This document shows positions 3,517 to 46,614 of a DNA stretch of 64,000 nt, one piece after another. The first letter of the stretch is position 1. The number at the start of each line of letters is the position of its first letter. The stretch lies in NCBI GenBank assembly GCA_951406725.2, contig OX597814.1, positions 88,536,001-88,600,000 of the forward strand, read 5' to 3'. Source of the stretch: Octopus vulgaris (lineage: Eukaryota). Position numbers and translations under genes: made by a program. Below the pieces are notes generated by a model. It ran no database searches, was not told the DNA's origin, and saw only the letters and a program-made list of their open reading frames with translations.

Positions 3517-4374
3517 TATGACTGTGCATGATTGATGTTTTTTTTTTTTTAAAGCCTGTATTTTTTAGCCATTTGTTGTTTGGCTAATATTAGATACGGT
3601 CGGATTGGATTGCAACGTGAGAGAATACACTTCTTTTTGGGATTGCATTAATTATGATTTATAAATATCAGCTCCAGGAAGTATTTTAGGCATGTTCATA
3701 GGCTATTTCTCGATCCTGTTTACTGAATAAGATTATCGTCACGTTTTATTGGTTCGTAGCAATTTTACGTCATTCAAAATATAATTTGCTTAAAGAGTTG
3801 TTAGAGAAGATTTAATAAACAGTCGTTACGGAAGCAACATTTCATAGTTCTTAGCATACAGAACATCATTGCGGAAGCTTTATTTTTTAATTCTTCGTTG
3901 ATCCTAGTTAATAATTTCAAAAGCTATTTCTGAGAAATTGCTTTAGAATACTATAAATAGCATTTTCTGTTGTTGTTCAGCCCTAATTCAGCTACACTTC
4001 AATAGAAAGTGTTTCACCACTCGTAGTATATATTTGAGTCATTTCAGTAAATGTAACCTCTTTTTTTCTTTCTTTTTCTTTCTCTCTTTCTTTTCTGTAT
4101 TTCTTTTTCTTTCTTTTTCTGTCTTTCTTTTTCTTTCTTTATTTCTTTCTTTCTTTTCCTTTCTTTCTTTCTTTCTTTCTTTCTTTGTCTGTCTGTTTGT
4201 CTCCTCCCTCTCCCTTTTCTCTTTACCCCGCCTCACTAACATAGTACAGTATGATTTGGGCACGATTTGAAATCGATATTATTATATGCAGACATTACTG
4301 TATGCTTCACAACCACGCAGTTTGGGGTTCAGTTTCACTGTATGACACCTTGGGCAAGTGTGTGTGTATCAATA

Positions 4375-7300
4375 TATATGATGATTGGTTTATCTTGACA
4401 GATGATAGCCATCCCATCAACACACAATCACTCCATGAATGAACCCTCAGGTGACTTTTAAGACCAATTGCTGACTGATTGGGTTTAAAACACAAGTAAC
4501 AGATATTCAAGCTTCTTCTATATTTTTGCCCTTTGGAATCTGATTCCGAAGGAATGTTTTTGTGAACTAGCATATGTCTTTCAAGTCCAGATATTGTCTT
4601 ACAAGTTTTGTGACATATGACACAAGTCATAAAAGGCGATTGTTGTTCAAGATTATTAACTACCCGGGCATTTTGATTTTCATGTGACTTCATATGATTC
4701 ACATAACCTGCTTTTGACAACCGAACAGGATCACACATAATACATTTCCAATGTTCACTGTTGGTTTCAGTCCCAATTGTTCCTTTGCGACAGGCCCTTT
4801 TAAGCTCGGACTGCTGAATCGTCTTTTCCTCCTAGGTATTGTAACCAGTCCTAAAAGCACCTCTCCACTTGTTCCGATCTAGAACATCAATTTTCCAATC
4901 ACTTTTGTTCATATCTTGTTTCTTCAGGTTTTCCTTCACACAGTCTTTATACTTTTTTCTCGGCTTATGTTGTGGTCGCTTACCAGAGTTGAGCTCACTA
5001 TACAAAAGATGCTTTGGTAATCGCTCATATTACATTCTGATAACATGCCCAGCCCATCTCATTTGAGCCAAGATAATATGTTGTTCAATCTACAACGTGC
5101 GATGCACAAAACTTCTGTATCTGGTATGAAACATTCCCACTTGACTCCCAAGATACGTCTGAGGCACTTTTGATGAAATCTCTCCAATAAAGAAGTGCAG
5201 TCAATACACACGTTTTAAAGACACTGGTTTTTGCCTGCAGGGAAATACTTTTATCCGCCTATACTCGCTTTTCGAGCTTTCCAAATGCAACACTGCCCTT
5301 CCTTTTTCGATTGTATATCTCTGCACCAAGACCACCAGGGTCCTTCCGAGGTAAACAAAGGTATCAATGACTTCTAACCTTTTTCCATTCACAAAAATGT
5401 TTGGTTCTGAATATGTTTGTCCTGGCGTGGGAGTACATATTACTTTTGCTTTCCCCAAACTAATTGTGAGTCCGAAATGTACACATACAGTGGAAAGTCT
5501 GTCCATTAAGTGTTGCATATCCCCCAACAAATCAGCATCATCAGCATAAAATAATTCTCTAACAAGTATTTTGAAAGTCTTTGCTTTGCAATTAAGTCGG
5601 ATCAGATTAAAAATACGACCTGATGTCCGAAATCTGATTCCAATTCCCCTATTGCAATCCTTGAAAGCATACCAAAACAATGCAGCAAAATATATAGAGA
5701 AAAGTATAGGCGCAGGAATATTTCCCTGGTTGACACTGTTGTCCACCGAAAATTCATGAGATAGCTCACCATTAAAGACTGCCTGAACTTTCATGTTTTT
5801 GTGTAGTTCCTTAAAGATGCTCACAAAATGTGTTGGGCAACCAAGTTTGCATAAAGCAATCCACATTGCCTCCCTGTTTACCGTATCAAATGCCTTAATT
5901 AAATCTATGAAAACCCGGTAGAGTGGTATTTGTTCCTCTAAGCCACAATATCCCAACCTTTTCTGCCTCGAGGCACCCTTGCCAAGCCTTTTAGAAATCC
6001 ACGGCACTCCTATTAGAAAATCTAATATGACAGTTGTTTTTTTTATTCAACATCAATATAACAAAGCCTTGTCCTTGGATAATAACATCTGCGTAAGAAA
6101 ACTATGTTCCTGGAATTGATAATAAAATGTTCTTCATTTCACCAATGTTGATATAATAGGCATAAAATAGATGATAATGCAAAAATTTAATAGACAACAA
6201 TACAAAGTATAAGATGACAATAGTATTTATTGTTAAAATAGTATCAAAATGCATTTTTGACATTAAATGATCAATCATGATACCACATACGTATGTATAT
6301 TTCGCGGCACCCCTCGGTTGATCTCATGGTACCCCAGGGTGCCGCGACACACCGGTTGGAAACCTGTGCTCTAAGCATTTCTCCCGAACCTGCTTCGTGG
6401 AAAATATCAGGTCCATTGTTCCTTGCTCAGGTCTGAAACCACACGGTTCTTCAAGAATCACATGTGGACACACATTCTCAACGAGATGATCTAACATGAT
6501 ACTTGAAAGTATCTTCCCGGTATGTGCTAGGAGAGTTATCCCTCTAGAATTACCACACACTGGTTTTGGGCCCTTACCCTTGTATACAGAGATTAGAATG
6601 CCGTTTAAACTATAAAAACTTTTAATGTCTTCCCTGTCATAGGCCGTCTGAACTTCGTCAGACAAATTTCTCCACCAAGTGTCTTTAAGCCTCCTGAGTT
6701 CCTTTTGCAAGTCTGATTTCTGAGACTTGTACAACTTTTCGAGTTGCACTTTGTTCTTTATGTTTGGGTCAAGAAGCTTTTCATGAATGGAACTATTTGT
6801 TGCTATAAGCTTATTTATCCCCTTATCATTGGGATCAAACCAGTCTCGGTGCTGTCTCCTCTTAAACCCTAACACCTCTGATCCCATTTTATATATTCCA
6901 TCCCCAAAAGATTGCCATGAACCATCAGAGTGAACGTTGCTGCATCTCTCCTGAAATAACTGCAAAACTTGTGATTATTTTAGTTGCTCTACATAAATTT
7001 TCTTTCGTACTCGTACACCTTCACAACGAATCTTCTTGCGGACCATGAACTTGAACTTTTAGCCCTAACCAGTTTGTGATCAGTATCTCAATCAGTACTT
7101 CGTAATAGCCCGAGACTGCACAAATCTTGTAATTCAGCTTTCCGAGTTAATACAAAGTCAATCATGTGACCTTGCTTTGATCTTAGGTGAATCCAAGTAG
7201 CTTTATGCTTCAACTTATGATGAAGGAAAGTATTCCCAACAACTATCCCTAGCTCACAGCACATTTGTAGCAGACGCAACCCATTGTTGTTCACCTTTCC

Positions 7301-7870
7301 CATTCCGTAACGCCCAAGTACATTCCAAGCACCATAGGTTCTACCAACACGTGCATTAAAGTCACCAAACCCAACCAACTTCTCATTCAAAGAGACTAAC
7401 AGAATACTTCTTTTAAACTCCTCATACAATGCATGGATATTTTTCTCACTAGTTGAAAGTGTAAGAGCATAGAGAAAACAGTTACAAAACGTCTACAAGA
7501 CAGAAGAATCCGGAGTTTCATTATGCGTTTGTTTATGCTTTGTCAAATTTGAATTCTAAGTCTTTTACCAAATCACTTCTTATTGAAAACCCAACACCAC
7601 CTTCCTTTTTTCTCCCTTCGGCTTCCCAACCCCAAATGATGTGAAACCTGCTACTTTTTCAACAAGATGATCTTTATCTGAACATCTTGCTTCAGAAAGA
7701 GCTGCAATATCAACATTAAGACGTCTTAGCTCCTTAGTTACAAGAGCCGCCCTTCTTTCAGGCCTATCTGTTCGATCTAAAAGGGTTCTCACATTCCAAC
7801 AAGCTAGGTTAAAAGAAACCTTATTCCTCGCATACTTGTTATCATTGTTTATATTAATTCTTTGCTCATT
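4375..7870 (-). mobile_element. Degenerate RTE (BovB-like) LINE: AP endonuclease, reverse transcriptase and three C-terminal C2H2 fingers
   Basis: APE motifs WNVRTL, DIAALSE, GDFNARVG and HMIDFVL. RT motifs RGITLL, GFRP, FIDLIKAFDTV, QGNIPAP.LF, YADD and FVYLG. Many stops and frameshifts plus an internal deletion. The 5' UTR may extend to ~8580. Confidence 0.93.
5944..6368. mobile_element. hAT MITE inserted in the RT of the RTE LINE
   Basis: Perfect 8-bp TSD CTCTAAGC (5936-5943, 6369-6376). TIRs CACAATATCCCAACC / GGTTGGAAACCTGTG match at 11/15. Removing the insert restores the frame REKCLEEQIPLY. Confidence 0.9.
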
Positions 7871-8885
7871 CCTGCTAAATTGAACCACCGTTAATCTCAG
7901 TAAACTAACCAACGGAGAAAAGACACAAATTTTAGTGCCACTTTCTAGCACATTCCCAGTATATATACATGTGAGTACTTTTCTCCTTAAAAGGGCTGCT
8001 CAAACAGGATTCTCCACCGAAAACAGCTCCTGTCCATGAAAACATGTTAGCGATATTAAGATAAGACCCCTGCCGCCTTATGTGCAGCTTTGTAACTGTA
8101 TGCTTCCAACCGGTCAAGTCTGCATACGTCACCACGCCTCTATCGCCATGGGACTTTTGAAAATAGATCATTGTACGATGATGGTGTTTTGTCGGGGACA
8201 TCAGTACTTCATTGGATTTCAATGATAAACGATTGTACAACACTTTTGCCACGCTCTGGGTCAAAATAGTAGATTCTAGTGACAAGCAAAGCAAGATGAC
8301 TAGTACTAAGTTGACTGTAGGTTTTATATCGGAGTATCTGCTCTTAGGCTTTTCCTCAAAAAGAGACTGCAAGCCATCAGTGGTAAATCAATTTGAATTC
8401 TCTCCTATACTGGTTGTCCTAATCACAGCTGCGTTTCAAAACAGGAGCCAAATCTGCTCCCATCAAACAGTCATGGCTTTGATAGGGCAGCCAATTAAGG
8501 GGACGTAATTACTATAACCAGGTTTTATGTCATAGTGTCCTTCTAGAAGAGTTGACTTCACCACGGCTAACGAGCCTCATCTACGCCAAACACACACAGA
8601 AACAATATATACATATGTACAAATACACACACACACACACATCTTTCAAGAATGTAATTGCGTAAAGCCAGAACAATGCGAGAAAGTACAAAGTAAACTA
8701 CAAAAGGAAAAGAAAACAGACGAAGTCTGAATTTTACCTTGTATTTCCATATTTCGGGGTGAGAAGTACAAGGTAAAACTTCAACTTTGTTCTGTTTTCT
8801 TTTCCTTTTGTAATTTTTTTTACTTTGTACTACACAACTACATTCTTTAATGTTGTACCTCACAATGTCTCACCAAAACTATCTC

Positions 8886-26472: not shown

Positions 26473-26523
<51 letters not shown>

Positions 26524-26582
26524 GAAATATTAAAATTACTAAGTCTCTCTAAAGGAGATTACGGCAGCGTTACTGGAAATTA

Positions 26583-26996
26583 ATAGTTATCGCCATACTA
26601 ATATGGCAGTCTTATAAATATAAGACTAAAGCTGTCGCTGATTAGCTCCATGTGACCAACGCCTCAAGCTAGCTATTTGACACACAAACTGCGTCCATTA
26701 TAAACCTTCGAACAGGGGAGGTCAGCCGCTTCATCCTGCCAGTAAGACAGCTGCAGACATGTTTCAGGGTATTTGCCCTTTATCAATTGATAAAGGGCAT
26801 TGATAAAGGGCAAATACCCTGAAACATGTCTGCAGCTGTCTTACTGGCAGGATGAAGCGGCTGACCTCCCCTGTTCGAAGGTTTATAATGGACGCAGTTT
26901 GTGTGTCAAATAGCTAGCTTGAGGCGTTGGTCACATGGAGCTAATCAGCGACAGCTTTAGTCTTATATTTATAAGACTGCCATATTAGTATGGCGA

Positions 26997-27003
<7 letters not shown>
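26583..27003. repeat. Perfect 204-bp inverted repeat (fold-back Penelope-like pLTR pair)
   Basis: Arms 26583-26786 and 26800-27003 are exact reverse complements by eye. The centre carries an extra TTGATAAAGGGCA. Confidence 0.95.
26797..26833 (+). ncRNA. Minimal type I hammerhead with U3-A8 core variant, mirrored on the - strand in the left arm
   Basis: GCA-TTGATAA-AGGG(CAAATA)CCCT-GAAA-CATGTC-TGC, with predicted GUC cleavage after 26830. Confidence 0.7.
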
Positions 27004-27042
<39 letters not shown>

Positions 27043-44146: not shown

Positions 44147-44950
44147 CACTTTGACCGACCAGTCCGTCAGGCGTCCATTTGACACCGCTGGTCACAGCAC
44201 GCTGTCCACTCCTCTCTGGAACGCGCCTTTCTCATCCACGTGATCCCAATCGTCCTCTTGAAATCGTCACTCCACCGTCGTGGAGGTCTTCCGGGTGGTC
44301 TTTTCCGCTCACGCGGGTACCACTCGACAACTGCGTGCGTCCACCGATTATCGGTGAGCCGGGCGACGTGTCCAGCCCATCTATACTTGCTGCGAGTATA
44401 CTCTGCGATGACATCTCTCACGCCGGACTTCTTTCTGATGATCTTGCTATTTATGTGCTCTCTCAACGAGATACCAAGCATTGACCTTTCCATGGCTCTT
44501 TGAGCCGTTATCAGTCTTTGCTCTTCTCTCTTTGTGGTAGCCCATGTTTCACTACCATATAACATTGCAGGCAGAACTGCACTGTTAATGAGGTTAGCGC
44601 GGGTGGTCCTGTCCAACCTTCCCTTGAGCACATCCCTTATGCCATTGAACGCCTTCCATCCGGCCCTTACTCTCCGTGAGATCTCCTTTTTGATATCCCG
44701 GCACATATTTACTTTCTATCCCAGGTAGACATATTCTCTCACCTCCTCTATTTCATCACTGCCGATCACCATTCGACCTGTTGGTACGTTGTCTGACCGC
44801 ATGAACTTTGTTTTCATGCGGTTCATCTTGAGACCTACTGCAGAACTTTTGATGTCGAGCTCCGTCAGCATGGTCTGAAGCCGATCCATGTTTTCAGCGA
44901 TGAGTACGATGTCGTCAGCGAAACGGAGGTGAGTGAGGAGCTCGCCATTG
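44147..44950 (-). mobile_element. 5'-truncated, relatively young RTE-clade LINE (RT C-terminal half)
   Basis: NGELLTHLRFADDIVLI...GLKMN..KTK...YVYLG*...VLPAMLYGSETW...WAGHVAR..DNRW...GRPPRRWSD. Only one in-frame stop (~44716), and GC-richer than its flanks. Confidence 0.93.
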
Positions 44951-45172: not shown

Positions 45173-45901
45173 TTGATTTGATTTGATTTTTCCAGTTTCA
45201 GCTTATGAGCTGTGGCCATGCTGGGGCACCGCCTAATAATAATAATGGTTTCAAATTTTGCCACAAGACCAGCAATTTTCTGGGGGAGGGATGAGTCGAT
45301 CACATTGACTCCAGTGTTCATCTAGTACTTATTTTATCGACCCCAAAAGGATGAAAAGCAAACTCAACCTCAGCGGAATTTGAACTCAGAACGGAGCGAT
45401 GAAGGAAATGCATTTCGCCCAGCGTATAAAGATTCAGCCTACTCGCAACAGTTACTGAAAGAAAGCAATTATTAATGGCTTTACCGTCTGGAAATTTCTT
45501 TATAAATCTATGTTCCAAGAAATTTCCTGTAATTTCGATTTCTGAAGTTTATTGAATATCTGAATTACAAATTTTTCACAAATTTAAATATTCGTTACAT
45601 TCACTGCGGAGTATATTTTAATGTTTGATGTTCATTTGCAACAGACTCTCTCTCTCTCTCTCTCTCTCTCGTCAGTATTTTTATTAATGGTTATTTAATA
45701 TATATAAATTTCAAGTTTTTTTTCTATTTGAAAAACCCACAGTTTATTCTGTATACGTAACGTAAAAAAATATTTATTGTATGAATGAATGTTATTAAAC
45801 AAAATAGCTGTATAACTTTGAGGCTTATGATGCGAGGCACAATTTCAAGAATATTGGTTTCTGGAGTTTGTTAAATAAATATTTTTGATGTTACCAACAT
45901 A

Positions 45902-46326
45902 ATATGGCAGTCCCAGGAAAGGAAGAATGTTACAGCTATTTAGCCCTAAGAAACACCGTTTCTAGTTGGCTACGCGACACAAGTGTTCTGTGTCCTTAAG
46001 CTTTCAAACAAGGGAGATAAGCACATCCATCCAGCAAAGCCAGCACCCAGAGACTAGTTTCAGGGTAATTGCTTTTCATCAGTCTGGAGTGGCTTGCAGT
46101 AACAGCACGATAAAGTGACATCGAGCAAGGCCAAGCTACTCCAGACTGATGAAGAGCAAATACCCTGAAACTAGTCTCTGAGTGCTGGCTTTGTTGGGTA
46201 GAGGTGCTTATCTCCCCTGTTTGAAAGCTTAAGGACAGAGAACGCTTGTGTGGCGTAACCAACAAGAAACGGTGTTTCTTGGGGCTAAATAACAGTAACA
46301 TTCTTCCCTTTCCAGGGACTACATAT
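45902..46326. repeat. Imperfect ~195-bp inverted repeat (older fold-back Penelope-like pLTR pair)
   Basis: Arms 45902-46096 and 46132-46326 with a 35-bp spacer and roughly one mismatch per ten bases. Shares ATATGGCAGTC, AACAGGGGAG and TTTCAGGGTA.TTGC motifs with 26583-27003. Confidence 0.92.
46138..46183 (+). ncRNA. Minimal type I hammerhead ribozyme, with a more decayed mirror copy on the - strand at ~46045-46090
   Basis: ACTCCAGA-CTGATGA(46146-46152)-AGAG(CAAATA)CCCT-GAAA-CTAGTC-TCTGAGT, with predicted GUC cleavage after 46176. Confidence 0.8.
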
Positions 46327-46614
46327 AGACGCAAATGGAAAACAAAACAAACAACACAAAGAACGACCCCTCATCAGTTGTTGGCTGTTTTTCTAGTCTC
46401 GTATTTCGAGTATTTAACAACAATATACGCTTTCGATAAAACAGTTGCTCACTCAAAGCAAATTAAATAAAATTTGGGATTTTGCGGAGGGTCAAAATAG
46501 GTAACACAAGCAGGACAGTGAAAAAAAAAATGGTACGCATTTAAACGATCTAAGGTCTATTTTTCAGCATATTGGCACAGAAAATTTCTTTTACCCTTAT
46601 TTATAATTTTTTTG

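What the first reader, a model, noticed from the sequence alone, without database searches (positions are those of the whole stretch)
26583..27003. Perfect 204-bp palindrome with back-to-back hammerheads carrying a U3-A8 compensated core
Seen: the arms are exact, and the fold-back centre falls precisely at the ribozyme core. The + strand reads GCA-UUGAUAA-AGGG(CAAAUA)CCCU-GAAA-CAUGUC/UGC. The sister element at 46146 has canonical CUGAUGA in the same context. Each outer end also has two small adjacent hairpins (GCCATA-CTAA-TATGGC and AGTCTTATA-AA-TATAAGACT). Known: C3 and G8 form a Watson-Crick pair in the active hammerhead and the U3-A8 double change is the tolerated compensation. Penelope-like elements produce inverted pLTR structures. 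Inference: this is a young, non-coding, ribozyme-bearing fold-back retroelement whose core covaries rather than decays. If transcribed it would give a ~200-bp dsRNA hairpin (ADAR/Dicer substrate) competing with ribozyme folding.
Basis: partly seen in the sequence, partly recalled or inferred. Interest (0 to 1): 0.85.

Follow-up and report, generated by a model that had tools for sequence, protein, structure and literature searches.

The report
Truncated two-armed retrozyme insertion
The perfect palindrome is real, but it is one cut-short, head-to-head insertion of a common 365-base non-coding jumping repeat, likely pasted in by a Penelope-type enzyme; its two hammerhead motifs lack one strand and are predicted not to cut, and the U-A core pair is family-wide and already published.

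Summary
The palindrome is real: 205-bp arms, 100% identical, 11-nt spacer. It is not an element of its own. Both arms are 5'-truncated copies of a 365-nt repeat with hundreds of genomic copies and a canonical type I hammerhead, an animal non-LTR retrozyme. The left arm runs 65 nt further and both end in (AT)n. One long plus one short end occurs in 25 of 26 classifiable head-to-head insertions and in a young autonomous Penelope-like element here, which argues against an assembly artefact. Both arms stop at the core and lose helix I, so both ribozymes are predicted dead. Junctions elsewhere are scattered. U3-A8 is the family's inherited state (70 of 73; 671 motif hits versus 44 for C3-G8). It recurs in three lineages and is published (PMC3088659, PMC4209133). 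Single changes are rarer (28, 23), but one U3-G8 lineage amplified. Why the arms are identical is unexplained: very recent insertion or arm homogenisation. The scan noted such families before, in this and other genomes. New member of a known kind.

The parts
26518..26787 (-). Left arm: unit positions u1-u270 of the 365-nt retrozyme (u1 = the A before the core), ending at the family's long 3' end
   Evidence: 97.4% to the L006 unit over 270 nt; u263-271 is one of two 3'-end clusters
26799..27003 (+). Right arm: u1-u205, ending at the family's short 3' end
   Evidence: 96.6% to the L006 unit; 100% complementary to 26583-26787
26518..26582 (-). 65-nt 'tail' between the two fixed 3' ends, present on one arm only
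   Evidence: tail concept from PMC8557442 and PMC11167929
26786..26811 (+). Junction: fold-back at 26786/26787 on a 2-nt AT overlap, and a 13-nt direct duplication (26786-26798, 26799-26811) that supplies the spurious GCA
   Evidence: read directly from the sequence
26800..26836 (+). Truncated type I hammerhead: U3-A8 core, helix II AGGG/CCCT with loop CAAATA, palindromic helix III ACATGT, predicted site GUC after 26830, 3' strand of helix I; 5' strand missing
26750..26786 (-). Same truncated hammerhead on the other strand, predicted site after 26756; helix I 5' strand absent
26959..26994 (+). Twin hairpin 10-45 nt before the short 3' end (26959-26978 and 26979-26994; mirror copy 26592-26627); candidate recognition signal for the reverse transcriptase (inferred)
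   Evidence: folds; one or both hairpins at the same place, with other sequences, in related families
26476..26519 (.). Left half of the (AT)n target site (approximate limits)
27001..27038 (.). Right half of the (AT)n target site (approximate limits)
45895..46330 (.). Separate, older head-to-head insertion of a related family (B) with C3-G8 cores at 46146 (+) and 46082 (-), both keeping helix I; arms 90% alike
   Evidence: Rfam Hammerhead_HH9 E 1.9e-4, 25 bits, below the gathering score of 52

Best explanation
The palindrome is one 5'-truncated, head-to-head insertion of a 365-nt non-coding hammerhead repeat (an animal non-LTR retrozyme), likely made by a Penelope-like enzyme that primed two cDNAs on one cut site, and both of its ribozymes are predicted dead. 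Steps: (1) shown: intact family copies carry a full type I hammerhead fold with a U3-A8 core and a palindromic helix III. (2) Predicted: multimeric transcripts self-cleave as dimers and ligate into a stable 365-nt circle. (3) Inferred from the insertion anatomy and from in vitro work on another PLE: the RT-endonuclease nicks both strands of (AT)n and starts reverse transcription at two internal sites, about u205 and u270, one per strand. (4) Shown for this locus: both cDNAs stop at the core and are joined on a 2-nt AT overlap, with a 13-nt slip duplication. (5) Not settled: the arms are identical either because the insertion is very recent or because the arms were homogenised later. A read-through transcript would be a 205-bp duplex, not a ribozyme.
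For: Unit period 365 nt; 29 of 96 segments are longer than one unit, up to 836 nt; only 1 of 96 5' ends lies at the cleavage site, so the template was circular or multimeric, not a cut linear monomer. About 85 of 96 3' ends fall at u200-211 or u263-271, followed by (AT)n in most copies viewed. 31 of 63 loci are head-to-head. 25 of the 26 classifiable ones, the window included, pair one long with one short end (P 4e-7 if independent; 5 unclassifiable). A >=99%-identical autonomous PLE (717-aa ORF) inserts in (AT)n with two ends 67 nt apart: 23 of 25 true 3' ends, and one of each in 6 of 8 inverted loci. PMC11167929 shows both-strand nicking at AT-rich DNA and two internal start sites that bound the tail. 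Helix I is paired in 123 of 132 cells over 22 hand-picked copies, with several pair types per position, against a shuffle mean of 78 and maximum 93. Helix III is a perfect palindrome in 17 of 22. Circular fold z -6.9 and -9.4 for two family units (25 shuffles each). Helix I probability is 0.0 for all five window folds.
Against: No autonomous PLE with a homologous pLTR was found: 0 of 20 regions and 0 of 30 loci at E<0.1, out of thousands of candidates, so the partner is inferred from matching ends only. Rfam did not call the U3-A8 hammerhead in the window or in intact copy L006. The helix I control ignores relatedness, and the rows were chosen by me. No cleavage, RNA circle or transcript is shown. 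Zero differences in 205 nt is an outlier (6.3 expected, P about 0.002), and the variant block shared by the arms has no third copy in the assembly. One distant family unit (L131) folds no better than shuffles.
Confidence: 0.82

Rival explanations
1. The arms were made identical after insertion. An aged two-armed insertion with a near-zero spacer extruded a hairpin or cruciform, and template switching or conversion copied one arm onto the other. This is a sub-question within the best explanation.
For: The arms share 4 rare variants (2.0%, equal to the 1.9% mean divergence of a copy), 3 of them private to this locus. The variant block has only these two hits genome-wide with 1 mismatch allowed. 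This is the most symmetric junction of 31 (offset 2; next 16 and 20).
Against: A recent insertion from an aged source that is missing from this assembly predicts the same pattern. Identical arm pairs occur at asymmetric loci too: L206 over 173 nt, L267 and L274.
Confidence: 0.45
2. The palindrome is a functional fold-back design: two active hammerheads back to back that switch between cleavage and a long dsRNA.
For: Both cores, helix II and helix III are intact, and the + strand keeps 3 helix I pairs. In the set chosen without regard to the core, 6 of 35 5' ends fall in u350-u5, more than a uniform spread would give (window drawn after the fact).
Against: Helix I and its bulge are lost, and helix I probability is 0.0 on both strands. 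The other 30 junctions are scattered. The allele has no second copy, so it has not spread as a unit.
Confidence: 0.04
3. Chimeric-read or polishing artefact.
For: No listed public run holds the whole allele, so there is no independent confirmation (see Tried and rejected). 100% identity is unusual in this family.
Against: The symmetry stops at the family's short end while the other arm runs to the long end, as in 25 of 26 insertions. The flanks differ. Other inverted pairs in the same assembly keep about 3% differences.
Confidence: 0.05
4. The 365-nt unit is the solo pLTR of an autonomous PLE not yet found, rather than a self-standing retrozyme.
For: PLE-type ends. Animal retrozymes are reported as pLTR derivatives (bioRxiv 10.64898/2026.07.22.740005). 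At C29 the unit abuts a broken PLE ORF.
Against: The C29 copy is 5'-truncated and sits in an (AAT)n run inside the ORF, and 0 of 20 relatives of that ORF carry the unit. Those relatives have their own C3-G8 hammerheads. The unit forms direct tandems with no ORF.
Confidence: 0.1

Closest known systems
Metazoan non-LTR retrozymes (Cervera and de la Pena 2020, PMC7229834; Li et al. 2026, bioRxiv 10.64898/2026.07.22.740005)
   Same: Non-coding unit of 350-365 nt (mussel 350-390 bp), one canonical type I hammerhead per unit, under 45% GC, partial tandems, stable predicted circle, proposed PLE mobilisation.
   Different: U3-A8 core. Mostly dispersed, truncated and inverted copies (longest 2.3 units in my sample) rather than long arrays. 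Circles and cleavage are not shown here. Octopus and cephalopod are not mentioned in PMC7229834.
U3-A8 hammerheads: Schistosoma mansoni Cercyon PLEs (PMC4209133, about 1,300 hits) and natural examples in Perreault et al. 2011 (PMC3088659)
   Same: The same C3-G8 to U3-A8 covariation; stated there to be active in vitro. PMC4209133 also notes pairs of motifs 100-700 bp apart on opposite strands.
   Different: Those in Schistosoma are minimal hammerheads with a long helix II. This one has the canonical 6-bp helix I, 4-bp helix II and bulge, and U3-A8 outnumbers C3-G8 671 to 44 for this loop.
Endonuclease-bearing Penelope-like elements (Neptune, Poseidon; PMC8557442, PMC11167929)
   Same: Inverted 5'-truncated copy, partial tandems, tail on one end, AT-rich or microsatellite targets, two internal start sites.
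   Different: No ORF. The tail is 65 nt rather than 30-40. No sequence homology to the PLE pLTRs examined.
Rfam Hammerhead_HH9 (RF02275)
   Same: The C3-G8 sister aligns over the whole model, including the UAC bulge.
   Different: It scores below the gathering score, and the U3-A8 family is not picked up.

Membership tests
Non-LTR retrozyme | Non-coding unit of a few hundred bp in tandem or partial tandem | tested here: met
   365-nt period, 29 of 96 segments exceed one unit; natural full units of 346-365 nt in four families
Non-LTR retrozyme | One canonical type I hammerhead per unit | tested here: met
   Met for intact family copies; not met for the window's two arms
Non-LTR retrozyme | Stable self-paired circular fold | tested here: met
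   z -6.9 and -9.4 for two family units; prediction only
Non-LTR retrozyme | Self-cleavage and accumulation of circular RNA | not testable with these tools
   Only contigs of runs guessed to be RNA were available
Type I hammerhead ribozyme | Core with a Watson-Crick 3-8 pair, GAAA and a UH site | tested here: met
   U3-A8, GAAAC and GUC in both arms and 70 of 73 family copies
Type I hammerhead ribozyme | Helix I closing the junction, with loop II contact | tested here: not met
   Absent in both window arms; present in family copies
Type I hammerhead ribozyme | Rfam hammerhead model match | tested here: inconclusive
   No hit for the U3-A8 copies; sister E 1.9e-4, below gathering
Autonomous Penelope-like element | ORF with RT and GIY-YIG endonuclease between pLTRs | tested here: not met
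   No such ORF at the locus; the one adjacency at C29 looks incidental
PLE-mobilised insertion | Inverted truncated copy, tail on one end, AT-rich target | tested here: met
PLE-mobilised insertion | Homology to the pLTR of an autonomous partner | tested here: inconclusive
   None in 20 regions and 30 loci; most PLE candidates in the genome were not examined

The most novel reading that the evidence does not exclude
This genome holds a natural experiment on what the hammerhead does for Penelope-mobilised RNA circles. The 3-8 pair flipped between C-G and U-A at least twice, a U-G wobble lineage amplified to 10 or more loci, and a C-A lineage spread locally. Catalysis would then be under long-term selection but dispensable for single rounds of insertion. 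Each two-armed insertion records a PLE dimer priming once from each of two fixed sites marked by a conserved twin hairpin, and near-zero-spacer products such as this one are then perfected arm-to-arm into long dsRNA sources.
Probability: 0.3. Interest if true: 0.55.

Novelty: new member of a known kind. Interest (0 to 1): 0.27.

Why it matters
The locus itself is a dead-on-arrival insertion. The family is a clean resource. It has matched natural U3-A8, C3-G8, U3-G8 and C3-A8 ribozymes in one scaffold, and an active, intact Penelope-like element with the same end geometry. Together these allow direct tests of whether ribozyme cleavage matters for mobilisation, which in vitro work on one PLE found dispensable (PMC11167929), and of whether a PLE copies a circle onto both strands of a cut. 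Searches that demand CUGANGA would miss most of these copies (671 versus 44).

Tried and rejected
Public runs: no RNA holder listed; the best holder has 0.53 of 32 sampled words. Four runs were laid on the palindrome and four RNA-guess runs on one unit. All were contigs; none spans the stretch, and at 26842, 26931 and 26933 they almost all show the family letter rather than the window's. Contigs drop rare variants and the runs may be other individuals or species, so this is no evidence either way on the allele, expression, editing or circles. The 'goes back 365' joints are expected from genomic tandems. C29 PLE ORF as the parent: rejected. A second, degenerate hammerhead at u265-300: rejected, since its GAAAC is not kept in the older subfamily. 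U3-G8 as a surviving intermediate from C-G to U-A: suggested by the short-alignment tree, but the longer alignment nests it inside U3-A8; the alternative is not rejected (p-AU 0.23). 'Same-template' sharing within loci: the 10-fold excess is partly subfamily structure; locus-private sharing is 9 cells in 9462. Pfam and PDB gave no hit for the PLE proteins. The Atlas gave only a GIY-YIG lead for the C-terminus of P0001 (0.94, 33% of one cluster). The helix I probabilities printed had an index error and were redone. Przybilski and Hammann 2007 (PMC1986816) could not be read, so how well U3-G8 or C3-A8 cleave is not taken from print. Tree rows: 149 of 177 motifs kept (28 dropped for fewer than 5 helix I pairs), the main subfamily thinned to 1 in 5, 103 rows used; 3 of 48 rows dropped.

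Full report
Observation. The arms 26583-26787 and 26799-27003 are exact reverse complements, 205 nt with 11 nt between them. The centre is a zero-spacer fold-back at 26786/26787 followed by a 13-nt direct duplication. The left arm continues to 26518, so the insertion is 270 nt on one side and 205 on the other, each ending in (AT)n. The genome has 2.8 Gb in 227 contigs; an octopus-type animal is my inference from size and repeat make-up and from earlier scan notes, not tested.

What it belongs to. A DNA search found 52 matches from 40 of 2421 candidates scored; the best other copy is 98% identical. Copies extend upstream of the core and repeat with a period of 365 nt. Intact copies have the 5' strand of helix I, a UAC bulge and a long closing stem. 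Helix I pairs have probability 0.85-1.0 in two intact copies and 0.0 in five folds of window RNA. The whole palindrome folds as one duplex, -405.8 kcal/mol. Two full family units fold as circles with z -6.9 and -9.4 against 25 shuffles each; of six units from other families five gave -2.3 to -5.6 and one gave +0.2. Over 22 hand-picked copies from related families, helix I is paired in 123 of 132 cells with several pair types at each position (column shuffles: mean 78, maximum 93; relatedness not controlled), and helix III is a perfect palindrome in 17 of 22, as expected of ribozymes that work as dimers (PMC4209133). Rfam finds the C3-G8 sister as HH9 at E 1.9e-4, below gathering, and misses the U3-A8 copies.

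The core. With family flanks, 70 of 73 copies are U3-A8, 2 U3-G8, 1 C3-A8 and none C3-G8. With only the loop fixed, the whole-genome counts are 671 U3-A8, 44 C3-G8, 28 U3-G8 and 23 C3-A8, with 0-1 control hits; a few of the smaller sets are not family members. A tree with the two core positions masked puts U3-A8 in three separated lineages and needs 4 changes of C3-G8, 3 of them forced by well-supported branches. But singles are not all decay. In family C, 14 of 100 listed copies (108 in all) are U3-G8, at 10 loci, and 15 such copies form one clade at 100/96. In the older subfamily 6 of 53 are C3-A8, 4 of them on one contig. This fits the report that ribozyme mutants do not impair insertion in vitro (PMC11167929).

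How the palindrome arose. Of 96 segments in 63 loci, about 85 end at u200-211 or u263-271, while 5' ends are scattered. 31 of 63 loci are head-to-head, and 25 of the 26 classifiable ones pair a long with a short end; the window is one of them. 29 of 96 segments exceed one unit and only 1 starts at the cleavage site, so the template was a circle or an uncut multimer. A young autonomous PLE with a 717-aa ORF (RT and GIY-YIG-type motifs judged by eye from recall; 45% to an RT fragment) inserts in (AT)n with two ends 67 nt apart, 23 of 25 true ends, one of each in 6 of 8 inverted loci. I tested this after a lead from an earlier scan note. It has no detectable sequence similarity to the unit, nor do 20 regions of a second PLE family, so the partner is inferred. 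PMC11167929 shows a PLE nicking and extending both strands of AT-rich DNA and starting at two internal sites that bound the tail, and PMC8557442 describes the inverted truncated copy with a tail often at one end only.

The junction at the core. In 24 loci chosen on a motif away from the core, 3 of 35 5' ends lie at u360-u5 and 6 of 35 at u350-u5. That may be a mild preference, but most junctions lie elsewhere. Here it removed helix I from both arms.

Why 100%. Overlapping segments within other loci differ by 3.1%, so 6.3 differences were expected (P about 0.002); the locus was also picked for being perfect. The arms share 3 variants found in no other locus sampled, and the variant block has only these two hits in the genome. 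Either the insertion is very recent from an aged source absent from the assembly, or the arms were homogenised; I put these near even. An artefact is unlikely because the symmetry ends at the biological short end. No public run confirmed or refuted the allele.

What is known. Natural U3-A8 covariation: PMC3088659 (5 passages seen) and PMC4209133 (parts 1-2 of 4). C3-G8 pair: PMC3884650 (12 passages). Non-LTR retrozymes: PMC7229834 (5 passages and part 2 of 6) and bioRxiv 10.64898/2026.07.22.740005 (parts 1-3 of 5). PLE anatomy: PMC8557442 (12 passages) and PMC11167929 (parts 1-3 of 4). I saw no supplements; the supplements of these papers could list cephalopod families. My searches showed no paper on cephalopod retrozymes or on amplified U3-G8 lineages, within a library that lacks most subscription journals. 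Eight earlier scan notes describe U3-A8 retrozymes or PLE hammerheads, three in this genome; none matched this sequence or place.

Verdict. A real feature and a new member of a known kind; this copy is predicted inert as a ribozyme. Interest 0.27. The residual value lies in the family-level comparisons.

Noticed in passing
L330:1393-3543 (G000:C11) and L331-L350: Very young autonomous Penelope-like family, 717-aa ORF, copies mostly 99% or more identical, tandem and inverted arrays in (AT)n with two fixed 3' ends 67 nt apart. Its pLTR has a hammerhead-like motif with core CCGAAGA (U4C) and a GUU site, untested.
   Followed up: partly
L098-L121 (family C): Amplified lineage with a U3-G8 wobble core: 15 copies in one clade (100/96), nested in U3-A8 copies in the best tree.
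   Followed up: yes
L141, L143-L146 (G000:C28): Cluster of C3-A8 copies on one contig that share other variants, suggesting local spread of a mismatched core.
   Followed up: partly
L184:2061-5330, L185:2100-5372 (oriented), L191, L193, L194: Second PLE family with open frames of 980-1091 aa, Asn-rich linkers, and C3-G8 hammerheads with a long loop II in their pLTRs.
   Followed up: partly
window 45895-46330: Older head-to-head insertion of family B with two full C3-G8 hammerheads, arms 90% alike, 35-nt spacer.
   Followed up: partly
window 4307-7999 (-) and 44167-44715 (-): Decayed LINE with endonuclease- and RT-like frames, and an RTE-like 3' fragment, judged by eye from the translations.
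   Followed up: no
L218, L227, L228, L206, L220, L224: Subfamilies with changed loop II (CAACAA, CAACTA) and helix III (ACGCGT) that a CAAATA pattern misses, so 671 is a lower bound.
   Followed up: no
unit positions u74-81: Ten of 96 5' ends fall at the self-complementary TTCGAA site, a possible preferred joining point.
   Followed up: no
L061-L064 (G000:C29): A block of about 9 kb holding a broken PLE with the retrozyme inserted in its (AAT)n run is duplicated at least four times.
   Followed up: partly
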